Part shown: positions 46,707 through 64,000 of the stretch, in pieces
Layout of the letters: the number at the start of each line of letters is the position of its first letter
Numbering within the stretch: position 1 is the first letter of the stretch
Source of the DNA: Verrucomicrobiota bacterium
GTDB taxonomy: Bacteria > Verrucomicrobiota > Verrucomicrobiia > Limisphaerales > AAA164-E04
DNA length: 64,000 bases
Direction of reading: 5' to 3'
Assembly (NCBI GenBank): GCA_047947115.1
Contig: CP170459.1
Location: 3,200,001 to 3,264,000, forward strand
The notes under the pieces: generated by a model
Seen by the model: the letters and a program-made list of their open reading frames with translations, nothing else
Told to the model about the DNA's origin: nothing
Database searches by the model: none
Translations under genes and position numbers: made by a program

Positions 46707-46727
46707 GTTGCTTGATAGATCGTGAAA

Positions 46728-49376
46728 TCAGTTTTTAAACACGGCGTCTGTCTTGTCGCCTCCGCTCAGGATGTAGGCACAAAGGTCCAGGATTTCCTCC
46801 TTGGTCAACGCTGCCAACAATCCCTGCGGCATGGGGGAGACATCGGAAACCTCGATGCTGGATACCTTTCTGCGGTCAATGTTGGTGCGTTGGTTTGGAT
46901 TGGTCAAGTCGGTGTTGATCGAGACTGAATCCCCGTTCAGATTGACCACTATGCCCGTTACAGTGTCACCATCTTCCATGGTTACCACAATCGGGACAAA
47001 TTGATCGCTGATGACTTTGCTCGGGTTCAGAATGTTATCGAGCAGATCGTGCGGATTAAACTTGCCGGCCGCGGCGGTGAGATCAGGTCCGTTCATGCCG
47101 CCCGCATTGCCGAATCGGTGACAGGCAAAACAGGCTGCTGCGGAAAACATTTTACGTCCGTTTTCAAAATTACGATGCTTGAGTCCGGTTTTTGTCGCGG
47201 CGCTGAGTTCTTCCAGCGTCCACATTTTAGGGGTGCGTCCCGCAAACATTTCGCCGAGGTTTTCGATCACGGATTTTTGTTCCGGTTCCCGGGCGATCAA
47301 CTCGGCGTGTTCTTTCAACTCTGCTTCGGTGAAGGTGGCCAGGCTGTCCTGTTTGATGAAACTGATGAACCGTTCGAAGCTGGCGCCTCCTCGATAGTTG
47401 GCTGCTTTGAGAAACCATTCCAATTGTTGTTTCCTCAGTTCGGAGGTCCAGCCGGTCTTCAGGAAACGCAGGCTTCGTGCATATTGCATCTGGGGTTCCT
47501 GGCTTTCTGCTTCCGCGATCAGGGCCATTCCTTTTGCTGCTGTGTTTGGGGACTGGAGGTATGCGAGTGTCTCGCAAAGGAGCCAGTTCAATTCAAAGGT
47601 GGCAGCCGGAAATGCCGGATCGAGTTTGGCAATAATGGCGTTGACCTTGTCCTGAGATGGTTCATCAAAACGGATCAGCATTATCTGCATTGTGCGGACA
47701 TAATCCATTTTTTCCGTTTGGGATAGTGCGTTGAAGTTCAAATCCAGCAGCGAATTCAACAGCTTGTTGCGCATGCCGGTGTCCACGGTGTAACCGGTTT
47801 CAGGTCGATGACTCGGGCTGACTCCGGTTGTTCGCGCCAGGGCCAGCAGCGCAGGGATCCTCTTGCCGGCGGTAGGTTCTGATAAAGCTTTTGAAGCCCA
47901 TCGATCGACGGGCTGATGTTCAAGGACGACTCTTGCGGCAGCTCGGATGAATCGGTCGGCGTGATCCAGATGCGGCCACGCGGCGTCGATGGCTTTTGAA
48001 TCTTGTTTTCCATGATATGCCTCCAGTGAATGCCGCAGTTTTCTCAATGGCGTGATGTGCGGAGTCATGTCCGCCGGAGTCGTGTTTTCTTTCCCTGTGT
48101 AGCGGACACGGTAGAGGCCGGACTGAACCCGGCGACCGCCGATTGCAAAATACATGGCGCCATCCCTGGGGTGGATGATGACATCGGTGACGGGCAACGG
48201 GGCTCCGGTCACAAATTCTTCCTTGGTTCCTTTATAGCTTGCCCCGTCCTCTTCAAGGTGCACGGCGTAAATTTTACCCCAGCTCCAGTCGAGAATGTAA
48301 AACGCTTCCTGATACTTTCGAGGGAATTTGGCTCCATAACCGAATCGAGTCCCCGTCGGAGAACCCGGTCCGATGTTGATCGGGGCAGGCAGGGTTTCGG
48401 CATAGAAGTCAGGGTATTTGCCTGCGCCATTGCGCCATCCGAATTCTGCGCCGCTGACCACATGATTCACGCGTGTCGGACGATACCAGGGAGTGTTGAA
48501 ATCGTACTCCATGTCGGCGTCATACGCGAAAAGTTCACCGTCTTTGTTGATACCTCCGCCATAGATGTTGCGGAAACCGGATGCGTAGATTTCGAACTCT
48601 TTGCCGTCTCTCGACACGCGGTACACGATTCCGCCCGGAGCAAGCACGTCCCGGTTGTGTCCCCGTCCATCTGGCATGCGTGAAAGCAGATGATCGTCGC
48701 CCCATATTTTGGCCACTGGGGATTGATCCGATGTGGCTTCTTTATATCCGGGTGAAATGATCGCGTTGTTGCCCGTGATCAGATAGAAGTATTTTCCATC
48801 GGGTGTGGGAAGAACGGCATGCACGCCATGATCCCCACGTGATTCGAAAGCCTGAAGCAGATCCGCTTTATCGAGTTCGCCGTCTCCATCCGAATCGGTG
48901 ATACGGTAAAGACCGCTTTGTATTTTGCGTTCGTAATCATTGACACCGGCGTAGAGCACGTCGTCGACAAAAATCATGCCGTTAATGGCGCGAATGTCTA
49001 CCGGGACTTTTTGGATGTCTTCTCGAGAGAGCGTTTTCCCCGGGGCAGGTGTGTCGAATCTGTAAAGAGCGCCATATTGATCGCTGGCATAGATGGTGCC
49101 TCTGCTGTTGGCTGCCAATGCCACCCACGAACCCAAATCGCTGTTGGGGACGGAATAAAGCAGTTCGACCTCAAAGCCGGGAAGGACCTTGATCCGATCC
49201 ACGGGAGTGGCCTTGTTTTCTCCAATGGCTGCGCCTCGGTTCGGGTCGGGACCTCTGCCTCTTTGGGCGTTCACGGGGAGACTTGCCAGAACGGCTGCCG
49301 CAATCGTTGTCAGCATCCGGAGACGAAGCATTCCGGAACGTACGCGTGGATGATGTTCTTTTCGCATGACGATCAA
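46728..49376 (-). CDS. PVC-type heme-binding protein (beta-propeller + HEAT + CxxCH)
   Basis: PGFEVELLYSVP..GSWV, GDHGVH, SGFRN, YDADMEYD..PWYRPTR, GPGSPTG; CFACHRF..GPDLT..SPMPQGL; start uncertain. Confidence 0.85.
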   Translation of the reverse strand: MIVMRKEHHPRVRSGMLRLRMLTTIAAAVLASLPVNAQRGRGPDPNRGAAIGENKATPVDRIKVLPGFEVELLYSVPNSDLGSWVALAANSRGTIYASDQYGALYRFDTPAPGKTLSREDIQKVPVDIRAINGMIFVDDVLYAGVNDYERKIQSGLYRITDSDGDGELDKADLLQAFESRGDHGVHAVLPTPDGKYFYLITGNNAIISPGYKEATSDQSPVAKIWGDDHLLSRMPDGRGHNRDVLAPGGIVYRVSRDGKEFEIYASGFRNIYGGGINKDGELFAYDADMEYDFNTPWYRPTRVNHVVSGAEFGWRNGAGKYPDFYAETLPAPINIGPGSPTGTRFGYGAKFPRKYQEAFYILDWSWGKIYAVHLEEDGASYKGTKEEFVTGAPLPVTDVIIHPRDGAMYFAIGGRRVQSGLYRVRYTGKENTTPADMTPHITPLRKLRHSLEAYHGKQDSKAIDAAWPHLDHADRFIRAAARVVLEHQPVDRWASKALSEPTAGKRIPALLALARTTGVSPSHRPETGYTVDTGMRNKLLNSLLDLNFNALSQTEKMDYVRTMQIMLIRFDEPSQDKVNAIIAKLDPAFPAATFELNWLLCETLAYLQSPNTAAKGMALIAEAESQEPQMQYARSLRFLKTGWTSELRKQQLEWFLKAANYRGGASFERFISFIKQDSLATFTEAELKEHAELIAREPEQKSVIENLGEMFAGRTPKMWTLEELSAATKTGLKHRNFENGRKMFSAAACFACHRFGNAGGMNGPDLTAAAGKFNPHDLLDNILNPSKVISDQFVPIVVTMEDGDTVTGIVVNLNGDSVSINTDLTNPNQRTNIDRRKVSSIEVSDVSPMPQGLLAALTKEEILDLCAYILSGGDKTDAVFKN

Positions 49377-50476: not shown

Positions 50477-51976
50477 TCAGGATGCAAACGCCTCCATGAA
50501 TCTGGCCAGCAGAGTTCCGGGAAACACTCCCAGCAGTATGGTGATGAGTGCCGTGGTAATGATCAGACTGATCTGGTAGCCATTGGCTTCAATGGTTCCG
50601 GTTTGGGTGGCGTCTTTGCAGAACGCTGCCTTCAACATGCCCAGATAGTAATACAGTGAGACGGCACTGGCTCCCAATGCCAAGGCAACCAGCAGAATTA
50701 AACCGAGCGGATTTCCCGAGGTTTTCAGCGCCGAGATAAACAAATTGAATTTTCCCAGGAACCCGATCAATGGGGGAATGCCGGCCATGGACAGAACCAA
50801 CAGCATGAAACAAGCCGCCAACCAGGGAGATCGATGGCGCAAACCTTCCAGTGCCCGCCAATCGGATGCCTGCCCATTCTGGCTCAGTACGTGCAACAAT
50901 CCGAACACGCCAATAATCGAAACCCCGTAGGTGATCATGTAAAACGCCGCCGAAGCGGGACCGCTTGATGATGGTGACAGGATGCCCAGCAAGGCGTAAC
51001 CCGAATGAGCCACGGCGGAATAGGCCAACAACCTTCTGATGTTGGATTGTTTCAGCGCTGCGAGATTGCCGATGATCATCGACAAACAGGCCGGTAATCC
51101 AAGGACGACCATCCATCCGGCACTCCAATGCCATCCATGGATCGAGCCTTCAAATCCACCAAATCCGCCCCATAAGAATCGGCCAAGCACGAAAAAACCA
51201 GCCACTTTGGAAGCGGAGGCGATCAAACTGGCAACTGGCGTGGGGGCCACCTGATACACATCGGGCGCCCACATGTGGAAAGGCGCGGCGGCAATCTTGA
51301 ATCCAAAACCAATCAAGGACATGACAAGCCCCATGGCCAACAGGGGATCCGTTGGCTTGCCGGTCAAGGCCACTTGAATGTCGGACAGACTGAGATATCC
51401 GGTCATTCCATAGATCAAGCTGAATCCATACAGCACAAAGGCGGCCGAGACGCCTCCGATCAAAAAGTATTTGAGAGCCGTTTGAGTGGCCACAGGTTTT
51501 GATTTTTCAAAACCTGTCAGGATATACAGAGAAAGCGCCGTCAACTCCAGGGCCACAAAAATCATCAGCAGATGATCGGCTCCCACCAGCAAGAACATGC
51601 CTACCATGGCAAGCAGCAGCAAGGCATGGAATTCGCCCTGATGTGGGAAGGGGCGTTGATTGCCCATGTGCAGCCAGATGGAAGCAGCCCCAAGCGCTGC
51701 GATACCGAGTTTGACCATACGGCAGGCGTCATTGGTATAAAAAAGACCTCCCAGCATGTCGCCCGCAGGTTGGTTGAACAGAAGCACTCCACTGGCAAGG
51801 CCAAGGCCCAGTATGGACAACCAACTCAAAGTCCTGCTTAAGCGCAATGCTTCCATACGTCCGTTGAAAGCAAACGAAACGGCCAGTGCGACCAGCGCTG
51901 TGACCACCAGAATACATTCCGGCGCCGTGAGCTTCAGGATGTCTCCGTGGGTGGCTGCTTGTATCAACTGGTTCAT
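50477..51976 (-). CDS. nuoN: complex I subunit N
   Basis: FVALEL, KYFLIG, GFKIAAAPFHMWAPDVY, ASKVAG, RLLAYS..AHSGY, AGIPP..GF.GKF, YYY; start 51976 (MNQL). Confidence 0.95.
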   Translation of the reverse strand: MNQLIQAATHGDILKLTAPECILVVTALVALAVSFAFNGRMEALRLSRTLSWLSILGLGLASGVLLFNQPAGDMLGGLFYTNDACRMVKLGIAALGAASIWLHMGNQRPFPHQGEFHALLLLAMVGMFLLVGADHLLMIFVALELTALSLYILTGFEKSKPVATQTALKYFLIGGVSAAFVLYGFSLIYGMTGYLSLSDIQVALTGKPTDPLLAMGLVMSLIGFGFKIAAAPFHMWAPDVYQVAPTPVASLIASASKVAGFFVLGRFLWGGFGGFEGSIHGWHWSAGWMVVLGLPACLSMIIGNLAALKQSNIRRLLAYSAVAHSGYALLGILSPSSSGPASAAFYMITYGVSIIGVFGLLHVLSQNGQASDWRALEGLRHRSPWLAACFMLLVLSMAGIPPLIGFLGKFNLFISALKTSGNPLGLILLVALALGASAVSLYYYLGMLKAAFCKDATQTGTIEANGYQISLIITTALITILLGVFPGTLLARFMEAFAS

Positions 51977-51995
51977 ATTTCTATCGCTGAAATGA

Positions 51996-53492
51996 TCATT
52001 GTGTTCCCGCAACACTGCCGATGAGAGGTTCCAGCAATGGTGAATGAAGACTGGGAACAACCAGATCGAGAATGAGTCTTGGGTAAATGCCAATGATCAA
52101 ACTCGTTCCAATTAAAAGGACGGATCCAATTTTTTCCTGTGCGGTGATGGCCGGAAGAGGTTCATGCCTCAGGGGGGGACATCCTTGATTGGACGGCCAG
52201 AACACCGTCAACAACGCCCGCAAGGAATAAGCAACACCGATGACAATTCCGATGCCTGCCATGATGGCTGTGTAGGAAAAACTGCTCCAAGCTCCCGTGA
52301 TAACATGCAGTTCCGCGACAAATCCGCTAAAGCCCGGCAATCCCACCGATGCCAGCGCTGCGATCAGAAACACCGTTGCAGCAAAGGGAAGCTTTCTGCC
52401 AAGATCCATTCCATCCAGCTGACTCAGTTCACGCGTATGGGTTCGTGCGTAAACCATGCGGCCTACCACCGCAAACAGCAGCCCTGCCAGAATGCCATGT
52501 GAAAACATCTGCAACACGGCACCGCTCAGACCCGTCTCTGTAGTCGCCAGCAGACCCAGCAGAACAAAGCCCATATGACTGACACTGGAATACCCAATGA
52601 TGAACTTGAAATCACTTTGTACCAGCGCGACAAGGGCTCCAGCGACAATGCTGATAGCGGCCAGCAAGGCCAATTCTTCACGCCACATTGTGGCTCCCAT
52701 TGGAAACAAGGTCATGGGAACACGTAAAGCCCCGTATGCTCCGAGCTTCATCACAACCCCCGCCAGTAACATGGAAGCGCCCGTCGGTGCGGCGACATGA
52801 CCCGTCGGAGCCCAGGTGTGAAACGGCCACATACCTGCCAGAATGACAAACCCGATAAAAGTCACTGGAAAGGCCCACCGTTGAAACTCGGGTGTGTAGG
52901 GGTGCTGGATCAATTGCTGCAGTTCGAAGGAATGTGCTCCCGATACCACGAATGCGGCCATGATCCCGATCAGCGCCAGCGCACTGCCGATAAAACTGTA
53001 GAGCACGATCTTCATTGCTCCATACGATTTTCGGGTGGAACCCCAGATGGCAATCAGAAAGTATTTGGGGATGATTGCGATTTCATAGAAAACAAAGAGC
53101 AGAAACAGGTCAAAGCTGATGAATACTCCGTAAACGCCGCCTATCAAAGTCAGGAAGAAGCCGAAAAATTCGTTGGCACGGTCTTCGATGTTCCACGAGA
53201 AGAGCACGGCAGCCACTGAAGCGATTCCCGTTAGGACTACCATTACCACACTGATGCCATCGGCTGCCAGGTAGTATTGGATGCCCAAAGAGGGGATCCA
53301 TGAAGCCTTCACCGTATCGACGATGGGGTTGCCATCCACCGGGGCGTACAAAATGGCGCAAATCAAACCCACCACCGCAGCCGCGATCGTGCCGGCCAAT
53401 GCCAGGCGGCGACTGAGATCGGGCCTTTCCTTGGGAACAAGGAAACATCCCAGAGCACTCAAAAAGGAAATGTAAACAGTCCAGGCCAACAT
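51996..53492 (-). CDS. nuoM: complex I subunit M, second copy (atypical)
   Basis: WIPSLGIQY..DGIS, FVFYE, PFHTWAP, MKLGAYG, YSSVSHMG, QMFSHG, GLPGFSGFVAE. Confidence 0.92.
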   Translation of the reverse strand: MLAWTVYISFLSALGCFLVPKERPDLSRRLALAGTIAAAVVGLICAILYAPVDGNPIVDTVKASWIPSLGIQYYLAADGISVVMVVLTGIASVAAVLFSWNIEDRANEFFGFFLTLIGGVYGVFISFDLFLLFVFYEIAIIPKYFLIAIWGSTRKSYGAMKIVLYSFIGSALALIGIMAAFVVSGAHSFELQQLIQHPYTPEFQRWAFPVTFIGFVILAGMWPFHTWAPTGHVAAPTGASMLLAGVVMKLGAYGALRVPMTLFPMGATMWREELALLAAISIVAGALVALVQSDFKFIIGYSSVSHMGFVLLGLLATTETGLSGAVLQMFSHGILAGLLFAVVGRMVYARTHTRELSQLDGMDLGRKLPFAATVFLIAALASVGLPGFSGFVAELHVITGAWSSFSYTAIMAGIGIVIGVAYSLRALLTVFWPSNQGCPPLRHEPLPAITAQEKIGSVLLIGTSLIIGIYPRLILDLVVPSLHSPLLEPLIGSVAGTQ

Positions 53493-53494
53493 AT

Positions 53495-55051
53495 CTAAAA
53501 CCGCATTGCGCTGATGAGTTCGTTAATAACAGGATTCAATCCGTCGAGAATGAAGTGAGGGAAGAACCCCAGCACCACCATCAAGATGACAAAGGGTGCC
53601 ACCAGGATGGCGTCCAGCAGGGACAAATCGTGAAATCCTTTTGCCGATTGACCTGCCGGACCGTGAAATAATTTTTGAAGCAACCCGAGCAGAAAAACTG
53701 CTGTGATCAACAGAGCCGGAATGGCAAGAACCGCCGCCCAGGGAACCAGTCCAAACACACCCTTGAAGATCAGGAATTCTCCAATGAAACCGTTCAAGCC
53801 TGGCAACCCGACCGATGCGAAAACGGCCAGCCCCATCGTTCCGGCCAGCAGAGGTGCCACATGACGCAACCCTCCATGTTCATCGATCATGACTTTGCCT
53901 CCTGTTCTCACTTCCAGGATGCTGGCAAAATAGAACAACACCGAGGCAATGATTCCGTGTGCAAACATTTGAAGCATGACCCCCCCCAGCGCGGACGTTT
54001 TTTGGATGGCCAGTTTCATTTCACCATTCGTGGCGAGTCCCAGGACCAGCAATCCCAAGAGGCAATAACCCAGATGGTTGATGGAGGAGTAGGCGAGCAT
54101 ACGCTTGAGGTTGCGTTGTCCCATGGCCGCAAACGCAGAATAAACAATACCGAAAACGGTGATGACGAGCAGCGGCGTCAGTAGTTTGCCGAGAGCGTAG
54201 GGGAACATGGGGATCCCCATCCGGATGAGGCCGTAAAGGCCCATTTTGGACATCAGACCGGTCAGGATCATGGTGACCGGTGTCGGCGCATGGTCATAGG
54301 TGTCCGGCAACCAGGCGTGAAATGGGATCATGGGCACCTTGATTGCAAGGCCGAAAAAAATCAGAGCAAAAATGATCGCAGTGAGCCACCCGAGATGCAT
54401 GTCATACCATCCCAGATTGGAACCAATGACGGAGAGCAGTGAGCCATTGGCGGAAAGCTCCGCAATGTCGGCAAATTCAAACGTTCCCGCTGCTGCCGCC
54501 AGCGCCAGGAAACCAACCAGCAGTGAGATGCTGCCTACCATTGAATAGAGCAAAAACCTCAAGGAAGACTGATCTTTGCCAGGTGAACCCCACAGGCGAA
54601 CCAGGAAGAAAGCGGGAATCAGACTGATTTCATAGAAAAAGAACCACAAGAAAAAATTGGTCGCTGTAAAAACACCCGCCAGACTCCCTTGGATGATCAA
54701 TAAACATCCGAAATACTTGGGTTCATCGTGATCGATCCTCCACGATGCGGCATAAGCGAAAGGCATGATCAAAGAAGTCAGCAAAACCATCAGGCCACTC
54801 AATCCATCCATGCCCAGCGAATAACGAACACCTAACGTGGGAATCCAATCAAACTGTTCGGAAACCGCCTCTCCCGAACCTGAATAACGGGTCGCTAGCC
54901 ACAGGATGATGCCGATGGCAGAGGTCAACAGGCTGACACCCATCCCAAAATGCCGTGTTTGCTTGTGGCCGGGGCCATTCAGGAACACCAGGCGGATGCC
55001 GGCCAGCAGGGGCATCCATATCATCAAACTGATCCACGGAATCGATGTCAT
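53495..55051 (-). CDS. nuoM: complex I subunit M, first copy
   Basis: WIPTLGVRYSLGMDGLS, FFFYE, AIKVPMIPFHAWLP, SKMGLYG, YSSINHLG, GLPGLNGFIGE; ATGA overlap with nuoL. Confidence 0.93.
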   Translation of the reverse strand: MTSIPWISLMIWMPLLAGIRLVFLNGPGHKQTRHFGMGVSLLTSAIGIILWLATRYSGSGEAVSEQFDWIPTLGVRYSLGMDGLSGLMVLLTSLIMPFAYAASWRIDHDEPKYFGCLLIIQGSLAGVFTATNFFLWFFFYEISLIPAFFLVRLWGSPGKDQSSLRFLLYSMVGSISLLVGFLALAAAAGTFEFADIAELSANGSLLSVIGSNLGWYDMHLGWLTAIIFALIFFGLAIKVPMIPFHAWLPDTYDHAPTPVTMILTGLMSKMGLYGLIRMGIPMFPYALGKLLTPLLVITVFGIVYSAFAAMGQRNLKRMLAYSSINHLGYCLLGLLVLGLATNGEMKLAIQKTSALGGVMLQMFAHGIIASVLFYFASILEVRTGGKVMIDEHGGLRHVAPLLAGTMGLAVFASVGLPGLNGFIGEFLIFKGVFGLVPWAAVLAIPALLITAVFLLGLLQKLFHGPAGQSAKGFHDLSLLDAILVAPFVILMVVLGFFPHFILDGLNPVINELISAMRF

Positions 55052-57111
55052 CGTCCACCTCCCCAAATCCAGATGATTGTCAAAACCACAAACCCTAATG
55101 CAACGACCTGCAGGTAAAGTTGAATGCGGCCGGTGTGTGCGTTCGAGACCCGTTCAGCTTGGTTTTGAATACCTTTGCAACCACGATCGAAACCGGCGTT
55201 GATCACCCATTCATCCCAGAAACGGCTGATCCACGAAACGACGCGTGTGCCCAAAGCAACCACTTGCATCATGGGAATCATGAAGTGACGTTCAAACCAT
55301 GCGGCTCCATTGGCGAGCAAACGCGCGCCCTCAATGACTGTTGATTCATAAAATTCGTCCAGATAAAACTTAGCTCGCAAGGTGCTGAACCAACCTGAAG
55401 GTAGTTTTTCGTCCAATGGATCCTGGTCTCGTAGGGGATCAAATACCAGGCTGCTGTAAAACCACCAACCTGTAACCAAACCGCCGATTACCAGAGCGGA
55501 AGAGCCGACCAGTAATCCAAAGGTGGAACCATGGAACAAAGCCGTCCAATGCCAATCGAGGACTCCTCCTTCCAGAAAAGTCCGGAACCATGGGGAAATG
55601 GGAGTGCCCACAAAGCCTGCGACGATCGCCAGCCCCGCCAAGATTCTCAAGGGTATCAGCATGGAAGCCGGGCTTTCATGCGGAATGACAGGATGTTCTC
55701 CAGTGGCATTCTCACGTTGTTGCAACCTGTTTTTGCCGAAAAATACGTGGCACATCTGGCGTGTCATGTAGAACGCGGTCAGAAAAGCACCGGCAAGGGC
55801 CATGAGAAATGGAGCCGGATGACCGTGCCAATGGGCTGCTGCATGCAAGATTTCGTCCTTGCTCCAGAATCCAGAGGTAACCAGCGGAAAACCGGCCAGC
55901 GCCAACATCCCTATACCATACGTGACGAAGGTAACGGGCATGGCTTTTCTCAGTCCGCCCATATAACGGATGTCCTGTTCATCGTGGCAACCGTGAATGA
56001 CTGATCCCGCCCCGAGGAATAAAAGGGCTTTGAAAAACGCGTGAGTGATCAGGTGAAACATGGCCACCGCCACTCCGCCGGTACCCAAGCCCAGCATCAT
56101 GTAACCCAGTTGCGAAATAGTGGAAAAAGCGAGAATGCGTTTCAGATCATTCTGGGCGCATGCAACCAGGGCGCCGATCAAAGCCGTAATGGCTCCAACC
56201 CACGTGATCAAGGACAGTGCCTGCGTTCCCGTGCCGGAATAGGCGAGCAGCGGGTGTACACGAGCCATCAGGAACACCCCGGCGGCTACCATGGTCGCAG
56301 CGTGAATCAAAGCGCTGACCGGCGTGGGACCCTCCATGGCATCCGGCAGCCACACGTGCAGTGGAAATTGACCGGATTTGCCCATGGCACCGAAAAACAA
56401 CAGACAGCCGATGGTTGCGGCGGCGGTCATTCCTGCCATGCCGGGCGCAGAAGCAATCCAGCGAAGTGAGGATGCTTCCAGGCAGCCTTGTCCGGCATCA
56501 TAGAAAAGCAGGGAACCTGCCTCGCCGTAGAGCCAGACCATGCCAATAAAAAGCCCAAGATCCCCAATACGTGTGGTGATGAAGGCCTTCTTGCAGGCGG
56601 CGGCGGCTGATGGCTTTTGAAACCAGAAACCAATCAAAAGATATGAAGCCAGGCCCACCACTTCCCAGCACATGAACAGGATCAGGAGGTGATTGGCAAT
56701 CAGCAGACCGAGCATGGCCCCGGCAAACAATGACAGGAAGGCGTAAAACCGCACAAATCGCGGGTCTTTTTCCATGTAGCCCATGCTGTAAATAAATACC
56801 AGTAAGGAGACAAAGGTCACCATGACGAGCATGACGACGTTGAGCGGATCCAGAATCCAGCCGATACGCATGGAGGTGGTTCCCACATCGAACCAGTTGA
56901 AGTTATGCACCAACCTCGTCACCGCCCCTTCTTCCGCTGATCGAGGCACGGCTCCAAATGCGAAAAGGGACATCACAAAACTCAAGGCCATGGCTACGAT
57001 CGCCAGCCAGGAAGCGCCTTGACGCTTGTCAACCGGCCAGAAAGTCAGCGCCAGAGCCGCCAGGATAGGGAGTCCGGGGATCAACCAAATGTAAGAAATC
57101 AAATCGTTCAT
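55048..57111 (-). CDS. nuoL: complex I subunit L
   Basis: WEVVGLASY, RIGD, GKSGQFPLHVWLPDAMEGPTPVSALIHAATMV, HAFFKALLF, GFWSKD. Confidence 0.96.
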   Translation of the reverse strand: MNDLISYIWLIPGLPILAALALTFWPVDKRQGASWLAIVAMALSFVMSLFAFGAVPRSAEEGAVTRLVHNFNWFDVGTTSMRIGWILDPLNVVMLVMVTFVSLLVFIYSMGYMEKDPRFVRFYAFLSLFAGAMLGLLIANHLLILFMCWEVVGLASYLLIGFWFQKPSAAAACKKAFITTRIGDLGLFIGMVWLYGEAGSLLFYDAGQGCLEASSLRWIASAPGMAGMTAAATIGCLLFFGAMGKSGQFPLHVWLPDAMEGPTPVSALIHAATMVAAGVFLMARVHPLLAYSGTGTQALSLITWVGAITALIGALVACAQNDLKRILAFSTISQLGYMMLGLGTGGVAVAMFHLITHAFFKALLFLGAGSVIHGCHDEQDIRYMGGLRKAMPVTFVTYGIGMLALAGFPLVTSGFWSKDEILHAAAHWHGHPAPFLMALAGAFLTAFYMTRQMCHVFFGKNRLQQRENATGEHPVIPHESPASMLIPLRILAGLAIVAGFVGTPISPWFRTFLEGGVLDWHWTALFHGSTFGLLVGSSALVIGGLVTGWWFYSSLVFDPLRDQDPLDEKLPSGWFSTLRAKFYLDEFYESTVIEGARLLANGAAWFERHFMIPMMQVVALGTRVVSWISRFWDEWVINAGFDRGCKGIQNQAERVSNAHTGRIQLYLQVVALGFVVLTIIWIWGGGR

Positions 57112-57419
57112 CCCTTCAGATCCTCCAGTATTTCGGGGTCGGTGTTTCGGTAGTGGCGGAAAATTGAAATCACCAGGGCCAAACCAACCGCCGCTTCGGC
57201 TGCTGCAATGGCAATGGCAAACAAGACCATGACCAGTCCCGACATGTCATCCGCACTCGGGTGGAAACGCCAGAAGGCGACAAAATTGATGTTGGCGGCA
57301 TTTAACATCAGTTCCACACCAGCCAGAATCAGGATCGCATTACGACGCAGCATGACACCCGTCAAACCGACGCAGAACAATCCGGCGCTGAAAAGGAGAT
57401 AGGGAGTCAGGGTATCCAT
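57108..57419 (-). CDS. nuoK: complex I subunit K
   Basis: RRNAI..GVELMLNAANIN, AAAEAAVGLA. Confidence 0.95.
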   Translation of the reverse strand: MDTLTPYLLFSAGLFCVGLTGVMLRRNAILILAGVELMLNAANINFVAFWRFHPSADDMSGLVMVLFAIAIAAAEAAVGLALVISIFRHYRNTDPEILEDLKG

Positions 57420-57420
57420 G

Positions 57421-57969
57421 TTAATGGGTTGGATCTCCTTTGGTTTGCGGTTTTGCCCCCGGTACTGCAGATACTTCTCTGCGTTCAGGCATCGCCAGTA
57501 ACGCGGCTCCGATCAATGCAACAGTCAGCAGGATTGCGAGCGCTTCGAGGGGAAGCACGTACTCGTTCAGCAGGGATTCGCCGATAGTTTTCACGCTTTC
57601 GGTTTTTGATTCTGGCGCGGCGGTTTGTGCCGGTGAAGATTTGACAATGCCGGCCACCATCACGGCAAATGTGAGCAGTCCGGTAACCCATCCCAATAAC
57701 GAGTTCATTGGGTTCCAGTTGCGCAGGTTCAATTCGTTGCCTCCCCGGGTCATCAATAACGCGAAAATCACCAGCACGGATACAGCGCCAATATAAACCA
57801 TAACCTGTGAGAACCCGACAAATTGGGCGCTGAGTTGCAGGTAGGTCATGGCAATTCCTGCGAAGGTCACAGTGAGGCAGAGCACGCAATGAACCAGATT
57901 ACGCAGACACATCGCCGCGATGGCGGATCCCAGCGTGATCAATGCGATGATGGCAAAGACGAGGTTCAT
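57421..57969 (-). CDS. nuoJ: complex I subunit J
   Basis: RNLVH, L.AQFVG..QVMVYIGAVSVL, YVLPLE..LLTVALIGA. Confidence 0.93.
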   Translation of the reverse strand: MNLVFAIIALITLGSAIAAMCLRNLVHCVLCLTVTFAGIAMTYLQLSAQFVGFSQVMVYIGAVSVLVIFALLMTRGGNELNLRNWNPMNSLLGWVTGLLTFAVMVAGIVKSSPAQTAAPESKTESVKTIGESLLNEYVLPLEALAILLTVALIGAALLAMPERREVSAVPGAKPQTKGDPTH

Positions 57970-59144
57970 ACAGTTGCTTTGGTTTCTTCGGCGTAGCGGT
58001 ACACCCTGGGTTTAATTCTGGAATTCCGGCTGAGCAGTCTGCTCCATCCAAAGTAGCCGCCGGTGTTCATCACAGTCCCGACAATCCAGGCGAATACACC
58101 TCCTCCGAGACTGATCCAAACCCCTGTGGTGATCAGATTCATCACGGACATGGGCAGCATGAACTTCCATGCGAACTCCATGAGCTGATCCGCCCGGAGG
58201 CGGGGCATCGTGCCTCGGATCCAGATAAAGAGCAAGACAAGCAGGATTAATTTTGCAAATAACCAGAAAGGACCGGGAATGAAATCCAAAATAGGAAGCG
58301 GCGCGTGGAACCCACCTAAAAACAAAGTGGCCGTCAGGGCACACATGGCAAACATTGCCACAAATTCAGCTAGAAAAAAGATGGCGTACTTGAAACCGGA
58401 ATACTCGGTCATGTGACCCGCAATCAATTCCGATTCCGCTTCGGGAATGTCGAAAGGGGATCGGTTAACCTCTGCCAGAGTGGAAATCAGAAACAGGATG
58501 CAACCCAGAAAACCCCATGGAGTCCAGATGAACCATGCTTGGATTCCGCCTTCCTGCGCTTGTACAATTTCCGGGAGGGAAAGTGTTCCGGCGGCCATCA
58601 ACACGGCGACGCTGGAAAGTATCAGCGGGATTTCATAGCTGATCATCTGTGCGATGGCTCTTAATGCTCCCAGCAAGGCGTATTTGTTGCGACTGGCCCA
58701 ACCAGCCATGAACACCGCCAGTTCGGCCGCCCCTCCGATGGCAAAGAAAAAGAGAATGCCCGCCTCGAATTCCACCGCCACCAATTTGTGACCAAAAGGA
58801 ATGACCGCCAGTCCGAGCATGGCTGTCACCAGCAGGAACAGGGGAGCGAGCAGATGCAAAAATTGATCGGCACTGAATGGGATGATATCCTCCTTGGTGA
58901 GCATCTTGACCCCGTCCGCGATGGGCTGAAAGATACCGCCGGGACCAACACGGTTTGGACCGAAACGATTCTGAATGCGCCCCAGCATCTTACGTTCCAC
59001 CAGTGTTGCAACGGCAAAAAGCCCTCCAAATGCACTTATGATGGGGATGCAGGACAGCATGGCGGAAAGCACCGGACGCAGATTCTCCGGAGCGATCATG
59101 ACGATCTGCTGTTTCAGTGCAATGAGGAGATCTTCAAACCACAT
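57966..59144 (-). CDS. nuoH: complex I subunit H
   Basis: ERKMLGRIQNRFGPNRVGP, QPIADGVK..KED, SYEIP, AEVNRSPFDIPEAESEL, TEYSG, PRLRADQ. Confidence 0.97.
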   Translation of the reverse strand: MWFEDLLIALKQQIVMIAPENLRPVLSAMLSCIPIISAFGGLFAVATLVERKMLGRIQNRFGPNRVGPGGIFQPIADGVKMLTKEDIIPFSADQFLHLLAPLFLLVTAMLGLAVIPFGHKLVAVEFEAGILFFFAIGGAAELAVFMAGWASRNKYALLGALRAIAQMISYEIPLILSSVAVLMAAGTLSLPEIVQAQEGGIQAWFIWTPWGFLGCILFLISTLAEVNRSPFDIPEAESELIAGHMTEYSGFKYAIFFLAEFVAMFAMCALTATLFLGGFHAPLPILDFIPGPFWLFAKLILLVLLFIWIRGTMPRLRADQLMEFAWKFMLPMSVMNLITTGVWISLGGGVFAWIVGTVMNTGGYFGWSRLLSRNSRIKPRVYRYAEETKATV

Positions 59145-59149
59145 AACGG

Positions 59150-59788
59150 CTATTTGGCTAACATCTGCTGTTCTTCTTTGTCTGCCTGATCCGCAGCCGC
59201 TTTTTCAGCGGCGGCTTGTTTCGCCTGAGCGGCTTTTTCAGCTTTGGCGCGTTCCTTGGCCAAGTGATCCTGACGTTTTTGTTCCCGAACGGCATCCGTT
59301 TCAGTGGCTTCAGTGGGATGGATGTCGTGGTAGTAGGAGTCGGATTTGGCCAGGTCTTCCTTGTGCAATATCAGGCGGCTGAAACGGTTTTCACCGGCGT
59401 ATTCGAATTCCCGGTCCATGCGGATGGATTCAAAGGGGCAAACTTCCACACAGATCTGGCACCCCATGCAAACCGAGATGTCGATGTCGAACACCTTGGG
59501 CTTGAATTGGGCCTTCCCAAGGAAATCAGGTTTCTTCTCGGTGTCTTTTTCGATGTAGATGCACTGCGGGGGGCATTCCTTTTCGCAAATCTGGCACGCG
59601 ACACAGCGCAGACCGGATTCCCAGTCTTCTCCGTCAAAGATCAGCATCGGAAAATTGCGGGCCGATTCCTTGGCGGGAATCTTTTGTTCGGGATACTCCA
59701 CTGTGACCATTCGCTCCGGATCATGAAAACTACCCACCATGTTGCGGGCTGTTTCCACCATTCCTTTGAGTATGCCTTTGCCAATCAT
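59150..59788 (-). CDS. nuoI: complex I subunit I (2x[4Fe-4S])
   Basis: TVEYPE, CVACQICEKECP, CMGCQICVEVCP; start 59788 (MIGKG); Ala/Lys/Glu-rich tail. Confidence 0.93.
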   Translation of the reverse strand: MIGKGILKGMVETARNMVGSFHDPERMVTVEYPEQKIPAKESARNFPMLIFDGEDWESGLRCVACQICEKECPPQCIYIEKDTEKKPDFLGKAQFKPKVFDIDISVCMGCQICVEVCPFESIRMDREFEYAGENRFSRLILHKEDLAKSDSYYHDIHPTEATETDAVREQKRQDHLAKERAKAEKAAQAKQAAAEKAAADQADKEEQQMLAK

Positions 59789-59810
59789 ATTTCTTTCAAC
59801 TCTCCTTTTC

Positions 59811-60992
59811 TTATCGGTCGACTTCTCCCAATACAATATCCACACTGCCCAAAATAATCACCGAATCCGCAATCGTGTGCCCAAGACACATGTCCTCCAG
59901 AATCGTCAGATTGATCAAGCTGGGAGGACGCACCCTGAAACGATAGGGTTGCGGTGATTTGTCGCTGATCAGATAAAAACCAAGCTCTCCCTTGGGCGCT
60001 TCAATACGTCCGTAAGCTTCTCCGGCAGGAGGTCTCAATCCGCGTGACTTGGCCTTGGGGTGAACGAAATTACCCTCCGGAATATCTCTGAGGGCTTGTC
60101 GCAAGATTTTGACAGACTCACGCATTTCCAGAATGCGCATCATGTAACGGTCATAGGTGTCACCATGATCACCCAACGGGACCCTGAAGTCGAAACGATC
60201 ATAGATGCCGTAACCATCCACTTTTCGAATGTCATAATTCACCCCTGATGCTCTCAGGATCGGCCCCGTCACCCCCGCATCAATGGCCAGGTCCTTCGGA
60301 AGAACGCCCACTTCCTGTGAACGGGACATCAATACTTCATTTTCCGAAAGGAGCGCTTCGAATTCATCAAGAAACTTCGGGAACGCTTCGACGACTTGAT
60401 GGGCTTGTTCGATCCAACCCTGTGGAAAATCGCATCGACACCCTCCAAAACGCATGTAGTTGCACATCATGCGCGCTCCACTCAATGATTCGAAGAGGTC
60501 CAGGATGCGCTCGCGCTCGCGAAAAGCATACATCAACGGAGTGCCAAGCGCCCCCATGTCCTGAACCAGAAATCCGATCAGGCAAACATGATTCTGCAAA
60601 CGGCTGAGTTCTGCCGTGATCACCCGCATGTATTCGGCTCTCTCGGGAACTTCGATGCCCGCCAATGTCTCAACACTCAAGGCATAAGCCCAGTTGTTGG
60701 TCATGGAATTGAAATAATCCAGGCGGTCGGTGTAGGGCATGGAGCCCAGATAGGAGGTGCCTTCGGCAATCTTCTCGTGATTGCGGTGCAGGTAACCAAA
60801 GACCGGTTTGAGTTTGGTGATCGTTTCACCGTCCAGTTCCACATCCATACGAAACACACCGTGAGTGGATGGATGATGCGGTCCCATTGACACTTCCATA
60901 CGTTCCGTACCTTCGGGACTGTGCTCGCTGGAGGCAGTCAGTTCATATTGAGGGCCTGTCCCCATCATGGGATCATTCAACATCTCACTCAC
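59811..60992 (-). CDS. nuoD: complex I subunit D
   Basis: [37 protein letters not shown]; no Ni-binding CxxC. Confidence 0.96.
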
Positions 60993-61618
60993 TGGTCGCC
61001 TCCTTTTGCCGGTGGATTCTGATGTGCGGCTGACTTTTTCAGCACATCCGCATGGGGCGTGGGTTCGTACTCATAATCGTCCGGTTCCACATAGTCTTTC
61101 CGCATGGGATGTCCTTTGAAGGAGTCCCACATCATAAGGCGTCGCAAATCCGGATGTCCTTTAAAGTGAATGCCATACAGATCGAAAATTTCCCTTTCCT
61201 GCAGTTCGGCGCTTCGCCAGACCGGTGTCATGGAGGGGAGGGAAACATCGTCACTTCGATTCCCCGTGCGGGTGCGGAAAACCAATGGGCCAACCGGGGC
61301 TTCCATGGAATAAAGGTGGTAAACAGATTCCAGAAAACCCCTGGTTTCCTCGGGTTCCGCGTCCTTGCCGAACTTTACCTTCAGGGCATCCTCGGTCCAG
61401 TCGATCCCGGTGACATTGGACAGATAATCCAGCTTCCATGGAGACTCCTGCTTCAGCCATCGGGCACAAGCCACTGCGTGCTCGTTTTGAAAGAGCAGGG
61501 AATGCTGTCCTGATGGATTCTCGTTCTCGATAACGAGTACACCTGCGCCGGCGATAGCGTCGTTGATCGCATCCGCGACAGATTGTATTTCCGGTATATT
61601 AACTGACATGTTCTCCAT
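60989..61618 (-). CDS. nuoC: complex I subunit C
   Basis: [42 protein letters not shown]; start uncertain (61609-61648). Confidence 0.93.
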
Positions 61619-61651
61619 ATGGGGACTTGCTGGTAAGCGATGCTCCAAATG

Positions 61652-62260
61652 TCAGCCTCTTATAACGGGTTCAGGGTTCCAGATCTTTGCATTTTTTGGC
61701 GGTTGCAGGTCATGAACGCCACATTCTGGGATGGGAAGATCCGCCATGAGTTCCTCTTCCTCTGCCTTTCGGCGATCCCAGTGAAGACTGTCCCCTGCAA
61801 TTTTTCGCTGGAGGGTCATGATGGCATGCAACAATGCTTCCGGCCGTGGAGGACATCCTGGAATATGGATGTCCACCGGGATAAAACGGTCAATGCCTTT
61901 CAGGACGTTATATCCATGTTTGAACGGGCCGCCGGAAATGGCGCAAGCTCCCATGGCAATAACGTATTTGGGGGATGGCATCTGTTTGTAAAGGCGCACC
62001 ACCTGGGGGGCCATTTTCTTGGTCACTGTTCCAGAGACAATCATGAGATCCGCCTGACGGGGAGATGGCCGGAAGACTTCGGCGCCGAATCGCGCCAAAT
62101 CGTAGCGTGACATGGAGGTGGCGATCATCTCGATGGCACAGCACGCTAATCCGAATTGTAACGGCCACAATGAATTGCGACGTCCCCAATTGTAGATTTC
62201 GCTCAGGGTTGTCGTGAAGATGCCGGCTTTTTGCAGTTCGCTTTTCAGACCTTCGTCCAT
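61652..62260 (-). CDS. nuoB: complex I subunit B
   Basis: [27 protein letters not shown]. Confidence 0.96.
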
Positions 62261-62312
62261 AGATTGTTTGCTCGATTCCTTTTTCCCTCTGCTTGGTTGA
62301 AGGCCCGTTGGA

Positions 62313-62720
62313 TCAACGGCCTTTTTGTATCGGCGTGAACTGCCACTTGAGAAGCCCCTTTGCCCACGCCCAGGCCAACCCTTCCATCAATAAAAAGACA
62401 AAAAGGATCAAGGCTCCAACCGCTCCCCATGGCAGATCCCGATAAACCGATGCAATGGGAAGTAAAAATAAAATCTCCACGTCAAAAACCAGGAAAATGA
62501 TGCCGTACACGTAGTATTCGGCTTTGAGCGGCATCCATTGCGTGTCTCCTGTTTCCAGGCCGCACTCATACACCGCATTTTTTACTTCATCAGGCCGGGC
62601 GGTGCCCACCCAACGCGTCCAGATGCGCGCCAGCAAAACAGGAACCAGACCCATCAACAGTGCTGAAACAGTAAACACACCCAATAACAGATAGGGAGGA
62701 TAGGCAGTGCTGGATTCCAT
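62313..62720 (-). CDS. nuoA: complex I subunit A
   Basis: [22 protein letters not shown]. Confidence 0.94.
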
Positions 62721-62765: not shown

Positions 62766-63044
62766 TCAATTGTCTTTGGGCGGTGCCTGCGGGATCAGAC
62801 CTACAGAATGGGCGATGTCGGCAAATTCTTCTCTGGAAACATTGTCCAGGTTCTTTCCTCTTTTGGACAGCCTCTCATTGATCTTGACGGCTTTTTCCAC
62901 CATGCAATCGTGCGTTTCCGCTGACCCACCCACCAGGGCGAAGTTTTCACCTTTGGTAATTCGCTTATGGCCATCGGAATCCAATCCGACACCCAGCATC
63001 ATTGTCTTGCCGTTTCTCTTGCTGTTGTTTGGTATGTTGGCCAT
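62766..63044 (-). CDS. small hypothetical protein upstream of nuoA
   Basis: 92 aa, protein-like sequence (LGVGLDSDGHKRITKGENFALVGGSAETH), co-oriented, 45 bp before nuoA. Confidence 0.7.
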   Translation of the reverse strand: MANIPNNSKRNGKTMMLGVGLDSDGHKRITKGENFALVGGSAETHDCMVEKAVKINERLSKRGKNLDNVSREEFADIAHSVGLIPQAPPKDN

Positions 63045-63166
63045 ACGGTTTTCAAAGTAATCGCTTCAACCAAATGTGCAATGATGAACTGAATAAAAGT
63101 AAAGTTTCTACCTCCGAAACGGCTCGGAGATTGACATTGTGCAAGGTTCCTCTTCTATTGGATGGT

Positions 63167-64000
63167 ATGATGAAATCGTACGTCAGATTCTTCGCCGTTA
63201 TTGGCGGATACATCATGGGCTGGACAGTGGGGGTGAACGCCGCCCAAACCGGCGTGATCAATGCCGAACGTGTGAATGTGAGAACCCAGCCTTCCATTGT
63301 CAGTGAAGTGGTCGCTCAGGTGAACACCGGTGATAAGGTGCAGGTGCTGGAATTCATTACCTTGAACGACACTATTCCCGGTAATCCCGCTGAATGGTAC
63401 CGCATTGCCGTGCCGGAAGGCGCCAAGTTCTGGGTTTCGGGAGATTACATTGATAGCGGAGATGATACAGTCACCGCCAGCCAACTGAATGTGCGAGCCG
63501 GTCCGGGACAATCTTATACGGTTATGGCCCGGTTGAACCGGGGGGAAAAAGTGGAGCGTATTCTCGAGTCAGACGGATGGGTCTCCATCAAGCCTCCAGC
63601 CGAAGCTTTCGCATATGTCGCAACAAGTCTGGTGGATCTGGACGATGCAGTCGCGGAGGAAACCAAATCTCAAGAACCTCCGCCGGTTGTGATCCTGGAT
63701 GATCCCAGTTCCGGTCACACAACCATTCTCAAATCAACCGTTGAAGGCAATCAAGCCGATGAAACTGTTTCCGAAGAGTCAACTCAACCAACGGAACCTG
63801 AAAAATCCCGGGAAGAGGAGGAGGTTGTAAAGGAAGTGGAATCGATTCCTCCTGCTGAAGTCAGCACTCAGGAGGAAATGGCAGAAATCAAACCTCAAGA
63901 CGAACAGGCGACCCCGATCACCGAAGAGAACACAGCGACCGAAGTGCAGGAATCCGGACTCAGGCCCATTGATGTGCCTGTTCCCATGATTCCTTCCGAC
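63167..64000 (+). CDS. secreted protein with two SH3b domains and an acidic Pro/Glu-rich linker (3'-truncated; absent from ORF track)
   Basis: Manual translation: MMKSYVRFFAV..VNVRTQPS..GDKVQVL..EWYRI..WVSGDY..LNVRAGPG..GEKV..GWVSI..AYVA; TTGACA at 63131. Confidence 0.85.
   Translation, partial: MMKSYVRFFAVIGGYIMGWTVGVNAAQTGVINAERVNVRTQPSIVSEVVAQVNTGDKVQVLEFITLNDTIPGNPAEWYRIAVPEGAKFWVSGDYIDSGDDTVTASQLNVRAGPGQSYTVMARLNRGEKVERILESDGWVSIKPPAEAFAYVATSLVDLDDAVAEETKSQEPPPVVILDDPSSGHTTILKSTVEGNQADETVSEESTQPTEPEKSREEEEVVKEVESIPPAEVSTQEEMAEIKPQDEQATPITEENTATEVQESGLRPIDVPVPMIPSD

What the first reader, a model, noticed from the sequence alone, without database searches (positions are those of the whole stretch)
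50477..62720. Complex I-like operon with two NuoM subunits ('2M') and no NADH-input module
Seen: twelve contiguous, tightly coupled genes nuoA-B-C-D-I-H-J-K-L-M-M-N, bounded by non-nuo genes. There are four antiporter-like subunits instead of three, no nuoE/F/G, and nuoI precedes nuoH. NuoD keeps the quinone-site His/Tyr motifs and lacks Ni ligands, so this is not a hydrogenase. Known: 2M complexes have been described (Chadwick et al. 2018) and proposed to move an extra proton. Inference: the enzyme uses a non-NADH donor or acceptor (ferredoxin/flavodoxin-like) or runs reverse electron transport; its role in this apparent heterotroph is unknown to me.
Basis: partly seen in the sequence, partly recalled or inferred. 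Interest (0 to 1): 0.78.

Follow-up and report, generated by a model that had tools for sequence, protein, structure and literature searches.

The report
Headless four-pump complex I operon
This 12-gene operon encodes a known but never purified form of respiratory complex I, with four pump-type subunits and no NADH-binding head, which likely takes electrons from ferredoxin and passes them to menaquinone while pumping protons.

Summary
The operon is nuoA-B-C-D-I-H-J-K-L-M1-M2-N, with no nuoEFG, and the NuoL strap helix is 25 residues longer than in the genome's second, canonical 14-subunit complex I. It is a '2M' complex I (Chadwick 2018, known to me only through citing papers). It is no misassembly: M1 orthologues occur in 45 of 60 relatives, and the same gene order occurs in Acidobacteriota. 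This scan has reported the type before on other DNA.

Three additions:
(1) M1 and M2 come from different NuoM lineages, not from a duplication.
(2) M2 lacks the TM7 ion-pair lysine (E. coli K234) but has a lysine six residues after the TM5 glutamate (79 of 79). Among 145 distant NuoMs this lysine occurs only where K234 is lost.
(3) In other lineages, ferredoxin and 2-oxoacid:ferredoxin oxidoreductase genes flank this operon. This genome has these enzymes elsewhere, and no SucA, RuBisCO, NiFe-hydrogenase or nitrogenase was found.

Best reading: a forward ferredoxin:menaquinone proton pump for heterotrophic carbon oxidation. The donor, the direction and the proton count (4 or 5) are inferred, not shown.

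The parts
62313..62720 (-). nuoA (135 aa)
   Evidence: NCBIfam best match NuoA, below cut-off; E. coli D79 and E81 equivalents kept
61652..62260 (-). nuoB, carries cluster N2 (202 aa)
   Evidence: TIGR01957 over cut-off; Cys 40, 41, 106, 136
60989..61648 (-). nuoC (separate from D; start uncertain)
   Evidence: TIGR01961 best match, below cut-off
59811..60992 (-). nuoD, quinone site (393 aa), no Ni ligands
   Evidence: NF004739 over cut-off; His and Tyr motifs, no CxxC; 2M NuoDs form their own clade apart from the canonical NuoD
59150..59788 (-). nuoI, two [4Fe-4S] motifs (212 aa); likely entry point for electrons
   Evidence: start from ribosome-binding site and homologue starts
57966..59144 (-). 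nuoH (392 aa), after nuoI
   Evidence: NF004741 over cut-off; nine tested acidic E-channel residues kept
57421..57969 (-). nuoJ (182 aa)
   Evidence: Y59 kept
57108..57419 (-). nuoK (103 aa)
   Evidence: E36 and E72 kept
55048..57111 (-). nuoL (687 aa) with all tested charged pump residues
   Evidence: TIGR01974 over cut-off; residues kept
55129..55359 (-). Lengthened lateral (strap) helix HL of NuoL, D585-G661: 77 residues, against 52 in the genome's canonical NuoL and 48 in E. coli
   Evidence: predicted as one continuous helix 582-658 (mean pLDDT 76); 77 residues in 64 of 65 and 22 of 22 homologues
53495..55051 (-). nuoM1, the copy next to L; keeps E144, K234, K265 and E407 (E. coli numbering)
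   Evidence: TIGR01972 over cut-off; falls among K234-bearing NuoMs in the tree
51996..53492 (-). nuoM2, the copy next to N; keeps E144, K265 and E407; Leu at K234; Lys at position 150
   Evidence: full NuoM fold (pLDDT 96.7; TM-score 0.92 to E. coli NuoM)
53064..53066 (-). Codon for M2 Lys143 (E. coli position 150, six residues after the TM5 Glu137)
52839..52841 (-). Codon for M2 Leu218, where E. coli NuoM has the ion-pair Lys234
50477..51976 (-). nuoN (499 aa) with E133, K217, K247 and K395
   Evidence: TIGR01770 over cut-off; start
62766..63044 (-). Conserved 92-aa gene of no known family just upstream of nuoA; a neighbour, probably not a subunit
   Evidence: upstream of nuoA in 17 loci, some from the same genomes; single copy in 57 of 61 genomes, including ones without the operon; no Pfam or NCBIfam match

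Best explanation
The operon encodes a 12-subunit '2M' complex I without an NADH head, with four antiporter-type subunits (L, M1, M2, N) and a strap helix 25 residues longer than in the canonical complex, and it likely works as a ferredoxin:menaquinone oxidoreductase that pumps protons. Inferred steps: (1) 2-oxoglutarate:ferredoxin oxidoreductase (G000:C1:2555276-2558044) and the two single-chain pyruvate:ferredoxin oxidoreductase-like enzymes reduce a small acidic ferredoxin (best candidate C1:2860846-2861079). (2) The ferredoxin docks at NuoI, and electrons pass through the NuoI clusters and N2 to menaquinone at NuoD/NuoH. (3) The larger energy drop than from NADH pays for a fourth pump module held by the longer helix. 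(4) In M2 the lysine at position 150 likely replaces the lost TM7 lysine as partner of the TM5 glutamate, so M2 would stay coupled and the enzyme would move up to 5 H+ per 2 electrons. NADH goes to the separate canonical complex I. Shown: genes, order, residues, helix length, distribution, neighbourhoods. Not shown: donor, direction, assembly, stoichiometry.
For: Neighbourhoods: a ferredoxin-korA-korB cassette lies beside the orthologous operon in 7 of 44 operon-bearing genomes of family f44. PFOR-like genes lie head-to-head with nuoA in 7, and korAB follows nuoN in 2, of 29 acidobacterial loci (5 of 5 tested confirmed). The cassette ferredoxins are 44-48% identical to G000's ferredoxin. In f44, the KorA-type family is found in 35 of 44 genomes with the operon and 22 of 57 without (Fisher p 4.5e-5, overstated because kin are not independent). 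G000: no SucA found and KorAB present, so each TCA turn would reduce ferredoxin. Two MqnC/E-type radical SAM genes and no menB point to menaquinone by the futalosine route. Energetics: five protons are affordable from ferredoxin (136-168 mV) but not from NADH (96 mV). At least five operon-bearing relatives of 95% completeness or more (G035, G042, G046, G055, G058) have a single NuoF-family match, so no spare head is conserved. Lys150 occurs in 23 of 48 K234-less NuoMs and 0 of 97 K234-bearing ones, with three separate gains on the tree. The same PFOR-ferredoxin model is proposed for the headless enzyme of Desulfitobacterium (PMC11238625, passages).
Against: In the window's own order, no 2-oxoacid:ferredoxin oxidoreductase gene was found next to the operon: 0 of 20 relative loci, and 1 of 51 non-acidobacterial loci had one about 8 kb away. 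POR_N-family genes occur in 60 of 61 relatives with or without the operon. SucA loss does not track the operon (SucA in 12 of 45 with, 7 of 15 without; p 0.20), and 40 of 44 operon-bearing f44 genomes keep SucA. The ferredoxin orthologue also follows the canonical nuoN in 3 of 3 loci checked. In 4 of the 7 f44 cases the cassette also precedes a second nuo operon, headless in the 3 read in full. G000 has Rnf as another ferredoxin sink. NuoI shows no basic patch in its inter-cluster loop. 25 of 48 K234-less NuoMs have no Lys150, including the genome's canonical NuoM and two Bacteroidales NuoMs, so the lysine is not required for such a subunit to persist. Whether Lys143 can reach Glu137 was not measured.
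Confidence: 0.6

Rival explanations
1. Same enzyme and donor, but M2 is a non-pumping or weakly coupled relay. The K234-less lineage, which includes the canonical NuoM here, would pump one proton fewer to suit menaquinone. Adding M1 would then restore 4 H+ rather than give 5.
For: M2 and the canonical NuoM both lack K234, the lysine of the E144/K234 ion pair in current pumping models (PMC9271201 and PMC5938582, passages). NADH to menaquinone pays for only 3 H+ at 160 mV. M1 is an import from the K234-bearing lineage.
Against: M2 keeps E144, K265, E407 and four histidines in 79 of 79 homologues. It is more conserved than M1 across relatives (57-93% against 41-94% identity to the window's copies). 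It has gained an invariant buried lysine that arises only where K234 is missing.
Confidence: 0.25
2. The complex runs in reverse: it uses the proton motive force to move electrons from menaquinol to ferredoxin for biosynthesis, as proposed for the Nitrospira 2M enzyme.
For: This is the published hypothesis for Nitrospira (PMC6606698, section 22; PMC9040806, passages). The link to ferredoxin and 2-oxoacid oxidoreductases fits either direction. Five inward protons at about 170 mV could reach -500 mV.
Against: No RuBisCO, NiFe-hydrogenase or NifH was found in this 95.8% complete genome. SucA was not found, so KorAB is needed in the oxidative direction. Rnf could make reduced ferredoxin from NADH. 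The ATP citrate lyase search was uninformative, since its control did not ring.
Confidence: 0.15
3. The headless arm borrows an NADH or formate module encoded elsewhere: the canonical NuoEFG, the NuoE-F fusion plus NuoG-like gene at C1:3461083-3463808, or the NuoE-F fusion at C1:5998302-6000707.
For: Such modules exist in G000, and several family members have a second NuoF-family gene.
Against: Well-assembled operon-bearing relatives have only one NuoF-family gene. No nuoE/F/G lies inside any of 80 orthologous loci; the one nuoE-like ORF is at the far end of L105. NADH cannot drive five protons to menaquinone above about 96 mV.
Confidence: 0.12
4. The second nuoM is an assembly artefact or a decaying duplicate.
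For: None found. In 3 of 20 relative loci M2 and N are not next to M1, so the operon can be split.
Against: The copies are 28% identical; a single clade of M1 and M2 is rejected (p-AU 4e-5); both copies are intact and conserved across two phyla; contigs from other runs bridge them.
Confidence: 0.01

Closest known systems
2M complex I (Chadwick, Hemp, Fischer and Orphan 2018, ISME J 12:2668; not held; known here through PMC6606698, PMC9040806, PMC7300363, PMC7117926)
   Same: A second NuoM and a NuoL strap helix lengthened by about one pump width (25 residues here, 26 described). No NADH head, as in the thaumarchaeal clade 2 form. It coexists with a canonical 14-subunit complex.
   Different: Unlike Nitrospira clade 3 as described in PMC6606698 (enlarged nuoG; nuoE, F and H missing), this operon has nuoH and no nuoG. 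Unlike the Anaerolineae form in PMC7117926, nuoC and nuoD are separate and nuoBCDI lie in the operon. The clade number could not be tested.
Duplicated-nuoM complex I of Acidobacterium capsulatum 161 (PMC11636273, passages)
   Same: A heterotroph with a canonical and a 2M complex, both transcribed. The Acidobacteriaceae loci found here (Granulicella, Edaphobacter) share gene order and residues and group with the window's NuoD, M1 and M2.
   Different: I did not compare the A. capsulatum sequence itself. The paper calls it an NADH dehydrogenase and does not mention ferredoxin (0 occurrences in the main text).
11-subunit headless complex I (cyanobacterial NDH-1, PDB 6HUM; Desulfitobacterium, PMC11238625; Bacteroidales)
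   Same: No NuoEFG; ferredoxin is the known (cyanobacteria, as cited in PMC11238625) or proposed donor. NdhF of 6HUM is the closest solved relative of this NuoL. Bacteroidales NuoMs belong to the same K234-less type as M2.
   Different: Three pump subunits and a short strap (52 residues in Prevotella nigrescens, counted). Bacteroidales NuoM has no Lys150. The candidate ferredoxin here is a single-cluster bacterial type.
Canonical 14-subunit complex I (E. coli Nuo; second operon of this genome)
   Same: The same core subunits, quinone-site motifs, Fe-S motifs and E-channel residues.
   Different: It has NuoEFG, one NuoM, a strap of 48-52 residues, and nuoH before nuoI. The window's subunits are only 27-58% identical to the genome's canonical copies.

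Membership tests
2M complex I | Second nuoM gene in the operon, giving four antiporter-type subunits | tested here: met
   both copies pass TIGR01972; order L-M-M-N
2M complex I | NuoL amphipathic helix lengthened by about 26 residues | tested here: met
   +25 against the genome's canonical NuoL, +29 against E. coli; one continuous predicted helix
2M complex I | Placement in one of the three published clades | not testable with these tools
   The defining paper is not held, and no named Nitrospira or Chloroflexota reference sequences were obtained. Gene content does not match clade 3 as described in PMC6606698.
2M complex I | Both NuoM built into one complex that pumps an extra proton | not testable with these tools
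   Needs purification and pumping assays. The citing papers I read call it a hypothesis for the family too.
Complex I / quinone-reducing Nuo family | NuoD quinone-site His and Tyr, N2 cysteines in NuoB, two [4Fe-4S] motifs in NuoI | tested here: met
Complex I / quinone-reducing Nuo family | TM5 Glu, TM7 Lys, TM8 Lys/His and TM12 Lys/Glu in every antiporter-type subunit | tested here: not met
   Met in L, M1 and N; M2 has Leu for the TM7 Lys, with a Lys at position 150 instead
14-subunit NADH:quinone oxidoreductase | NuoE, F and G encoded with the complex | tested here: not met
   Absent from the operon and from 80 orthologous loci; present only in the second operon
Group 4 [NiFe]-hydrogenase | Two CxxC Ni-binding motifs in the large subunit | tested here: not met
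   No CxxC in NuoD; no NiFe-hydrogenase match in the genome
Ferredoxin-dependent headless complex I | Ferredoxin binds and donates electrons | tested here: inconclusive
   Gene neighbourhood supports it in two other lineages but not in the window's order; no binding or activity data

The most novel reading that the evidence does not exclude
This widespread Verrucomicrobiota-Acidobacteriota 2M clade is a chimera of two NuoM lineages that serves as the dedicated, high-yield respiratory exit for ferredoxin reduced by 2-oxoglutarate and pyruvate oxidation in oxygen-respiring heterotrophs. Its M2 subunit has rebuilt the Glu/Lys ion pair with a lysine on the same helix as the glutamate, a solution reached at least three times among K234-less NuoMs. 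That makes it a natural test of whether the TM5/TM7 ion pair is needed for pumping.
Probability: 0.35. Interest if true: 0.62.

Novelty: new member of a known kind. Interest (0 to 1): 0.36.

Why it matters
The operon type itself is described and common, so the locus alone is not a discovery. What is useful is that two open questions become testable. First, the donor of headless 2M complexes in heterotrophs: repeated physical linkage to ferredoxin and 2-oxoacid:ferredoxin oxidoreductase genes names a candidate carrier and points to a forward role in abundant marine and soil bacteria. Second, the pumping mechanism of complex I: a large natural NuoM lineage has lost the TM7 ion-pair lysine, and part of it has gained one on TM5. 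This gives natural variants for testing ion-pair models, and it means the assumed five protons should not be taken for granted in this clade.

Tried and rejected
The Chadwick 2018 paper could not be read under three identifiers, so the clade number stays open. Term look-ups in PMC4758237, PMC12361115 and PMC3144371 and the first part of PMC8235220 gave nothing on this operon.

Co-occurrence tests that did not discriminate: POR_N (60 of 61 genomes); SucA against the operon in the window's order (p 0.20 over all 60; p 0.50 outside the family); the ferredoxin itself (61 of 61). The 92-aa upstream gene was considered as an accessory subunit and rejected, because it also occurs in genomes without the operon; the protein atlas gave only hypothetical proteins. 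No free-standing flavodoxin was found; the one match lies in a 619-aa frame. A basic ferredoxin-binding patch in the NuoI loop was looked for and not found. An internal 25-26-residue repeat in the strap helix gave no clear signal. Promoter and terminator scans were at chance level. The ATP citrate lyase search is uninformative, as its control did not ring.

Expression: contigs from three RNA runs cover the operon, with depth falling from nuoA to nuoN while the DNA run is flat. Contig depth cannot rank genes, the flanking genes are covered too, and no silent-stretch control was obtained, so this is only a weak hint. A complex prediction of ferredoxin with NuoI and NuoB was not available, so there is no result either way. 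The M2 model came without coordinates, so the Lys143-Glu137 distance could not be measured.
Full report
1. Observation. The window lies at G000:C1:3200001-3264000 in a single-contig, 6.08-Mb genome, 95.8% complete. The nearest named homologues are titled Verrucomicrobiota or Pedosphaera sp., so the host is inferred to belong to that group. Twelve minus-strand ORFs run from 62720 to 50477 as nuoA-B-C-D-I-H-J-K-L-M1-M2-N. NuoD keeps the quinone-site His and Tyr motifs and has no CxxC; NuoB has the N2 cysteines; NuoI has two [4Fe-4S] motifs. M1 and M2 both pass the NuoM cut-off and are 28-29% identical. A DNA contig of run X1 spans N to L in one piece, and contigs of RNA runs X13 and X16 bridge the M1-M2 junction.

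2. Genome context. A second operon, nuoB-N with E, F and G, lies at C1:2313278-2327137; its nuoA is at C1:6015962. The other three NuoF-family matches are RnfC and two NuoE-F fusions. The genome has KorAB, two single-chain PFOR-like genes (one in an Rnf cluster) and two small ferredoxins. It has one E1-alpha gene, and no SucA was found. Two radical SAM genes of the TIGR00423 family and no menB suggest menaquinone by the futalosine route; that link is established knowledge, recalled. No RuBisCO, NiFe-hydrogenase or NifH was found.

3. Distribution. An M1 orthologue (40% identity or more) was found in 45 of 60 relatives, including 19 of 21 in the family. Of 20 fetched loci, 12 show the whole order, 17 have M1, M2 and N together, and 3 have the operon split after M1. 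The best 80 of 590 confirmed matches in the species collection are mostly titled Verrucomicrobiota or Acidobacteriota; they keep the same order as far as each locus reaches, and none has nuoE/F/G inside (several are the same genomes as). In a phylum sample, 15 of 300 other genomes had an M2 orthologue, in two families (only five candidates were scored per genome). In one of these families, f44, 44 of 101 genomes carry M1. The 2M NuoDs form one clade apart from the canonical NuoD (long branches flagged).

4. The strap helix. Between two conserved anchors NuoL has 77 residues, against 52 in the canonical copy and 48 in E. coli. The length is 77 in 18 of 19, 64 of 65 and 22 of 22 homologues in three partly overlapping sets. 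The model shows one helix from 582 to 658 followed by the last membrane helix. The extra 25 residues add about 37 angstrom. This matches the 26-residue insertion described for 2M enzymes (PMC9040806, passages). Earlier notes of this scan say long straps also occur beside a single nuoM, so the helix alone does not prove a fourth subunit; I did not test that broadly, and the two Bacteroidales single-M complexes I read have short straps.

5. The two NuoM. L, M1 and N keep all tested charged residues. M2 keeps E144, K265, E407 and the histidines, but has Leu at K234 and Lys at position 150 (17 of 17, 79 of 79 and 24 of 24; these sets were chosen by likeness to M2). K234 is the lysine of the E144/K234 ion pair in current models (PMC9271201 and PMC5938582, passages). 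The canonical NuoM of this genome and of three relatives also lacks K234 and has Thr at 150, and two Bacteroidales NuoMs lack K234 with Met at 150. Among the 150 best representatives at 50% clustering, 145 cover both sites: 97 have K234 and none of these has K150; 48 lack K234 and 23 of these have K150 (fragments and frameshifted rows included). A 59-row tree without the trait columns (25 full-length K234-less rows, 18 drawn at random from 88 K234 rows, 16 reference rows) needs one change for K234 and three for K150. One clade of M1 plus M2 is rejected (p-AU 4e-5), and one clade of K150 rows is rejected (p-AU 0.005; that group was tested after a first tree was seen, and four rows have odd composition). 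So the pair did not arise by duplication in place, and K150 appears repeatedly and only after K234 loss. That it compensates is inference. M2 has a full NuoM fold.

6. The donor. In f44, a ferredoxin-korA-korB cassette lies beside the operon in 7 of 44 genomes: directly after nuoN on the same strand in 4, divergent from nuoA in 2, and divergent with two genes between in 1. In the first 4 it also precedes a second nuo operon, headless in the 3 read in full. Among 29 acidobacterial loci, 7 have a PFOR-like gene head-to-head with nuoA and 2 have korAB right after nuoN. Only 22 loci reach nuoA, with at most 1.1 kb upstream, so this is a lower bound. Five of five tested were confirmed, with gaps of about 150-230 nt in three. 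The cassette ferredoxins are 44-48% identical to the 77-aa acidic ferredoxin at C1:2860846-2861079. In f44 the KorA-type family is found in 35 of 44 genomes with the operon and 22 of 57 without (counted by hand). Against: there is no such linkage in the window's own order; the ferredoxin orthologue also follows the canonical nuoN in 3 of 3 loci checked; POR_N is nearly universal there; SucA loss does not track the operon; and G000 has Rnf, which is rare in its family (strong matches in G000 and G001 only).

7. Energetics. With NADH at -320 mV and menaquinone at -80 mV (PMC5938582), and ferredoxin at -500 mV (abstract of PMC9304861 in the listing) or -420 mV (recalled), five protons are affordable up to 96 mV from NADH and up to 136-168 mV from ferredoxin. 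A four-module pump therefore suits ferredoxin, not NADH.

8. Mechanism. Most likely (0.6), ferredoxin reduced by KorAB and PFOR is oxidised at NuoI, menaquinone is reduced at NuoD/H, and four antiporter modules plus the E-channel pump up to five protons. Rivals: M2 as a non-pumping relay with four protons (0.25, same donor), reverse electron flow (0.15), a borrowed head (0.12), artefact (0.01). The rivals on stoichiometry and on direction are not exclusive of each other.

9. What is known. The defining paper (Chadwick 2018) is not held; I saw none of it. I read passages of PMC7117926, PMC9040806, PMC7300363, PMC7419157, PMC9271201, PMC11238625, PMC5938582, PMC11636273 and PMC8004040, and passages plus section 22 of PMC6606698; no supplements were opened. 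They describe 2M complexes in Nitrospira, Chloroflexota, Thaumarchaeota and Acidobacterium capsulatum, where the duplicated-nuoM operon is transcribed. Searches for the lysine change and for this clade with ferredoxin oxidoreductases found no paper describing either, but the unread 2018 paper and subscription journals may. This scan has reported the same type on other DNA several times.

10. Verdict. The feature is real and is a new member of a known kind. The two-lineage origin, the lysine swap and the ferredoxin-enzyme neighbourhoods make the donor and the proton count testable. Interest 0.36.

Noticed in passing
G000:C1:2313278-2327137 and C1:6015962-6016417: The canonical nuo operon starts at nuoB; its nuoA lies 3.7 Mb away. 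A relative's locus (L192) also shows no nuoA match upstream of nuoB within the stretch read.
   Followed up: partly
G000:C1:2314747-2316312: The canonical NuoM lacks the TM7 lysine (Leu at E. coli K234), has no Lys150, and has His just before the TM5 Glu; the same holds in three relatives. The main complex I of this lineage may pump fewer than four protons.
   Followed up: partly
G000:C1:2327648-2338956: A cluster that looks like alternative complex III followed by cbb3-type oxidase-like genes starts divergently from the canonical nuoB (judged by eye, no family scan).
   Followed up: no
G000:C1:4696761-4708002: An Rnf cluster has a 1640-aa single-chain PFOR-like gene, with a C-terminal ferredoxin-like domain, inserted between rnfB and rnfC, and an FNR-like gene at its end. 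Strong RnfC matches of this type occur only in G000, G001 and G050 among 61 genomes.
   Followed up: partly
G000:C1:5996743-6007220: An 801-aa NuoE-F fusion and a 520-aa 2Fe-2S/FAD protein lie downstream of beta-propeller (PQQ_2) and polyferredoxin genes; function unexplained.
   Followed up: no
G000:C1:3461083-3465008: A NuoE-F fusion is followed by a 366-aa NuoG/formate dehydrogenase-like ORF whose molybdopterin domain breaks off early; it may be frameshifted or split.
   Followed up: no
L187, L188, L189 (G375, G105, G399): A second headless nuo operon (A-B-C-D-H-I-J and further membrane genes with four antiporter-type matches) follows the ferredoxin-korAB cassette, so two four-pump complexes flank one ferredoxin module.
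   Followed up: partly
G011:C1:3183284-3186069 and G014:C1:2968362-2970436: Tandem arrays of seven and about five copies of the small ferredoxin; these two genomes also have the 2M operon split after nuoM1.
   Followed up: no
G391:C1:1974000-2006000: Two tandem copies of the 2M operon with several frameshift-like breaks; duplication or assembly artefact not resolved.
   Followed up: no
window 62766-63044 (-): A conserved single-copy 92-aa gene of no known family, found in 57 of 61 genomes and often just upstream of the 2M nuoA.
   Followed up: partly
window 42705-49376: Large genes with CxxCH heme motifs; the one at 46728-49376 matches the PVC-type heme-binding family.
   Followed up: no
window 63002-64000 (+): An SH3-domain protein cut by the window end; only weak, below-cut-off family matches.
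   Followed up: no
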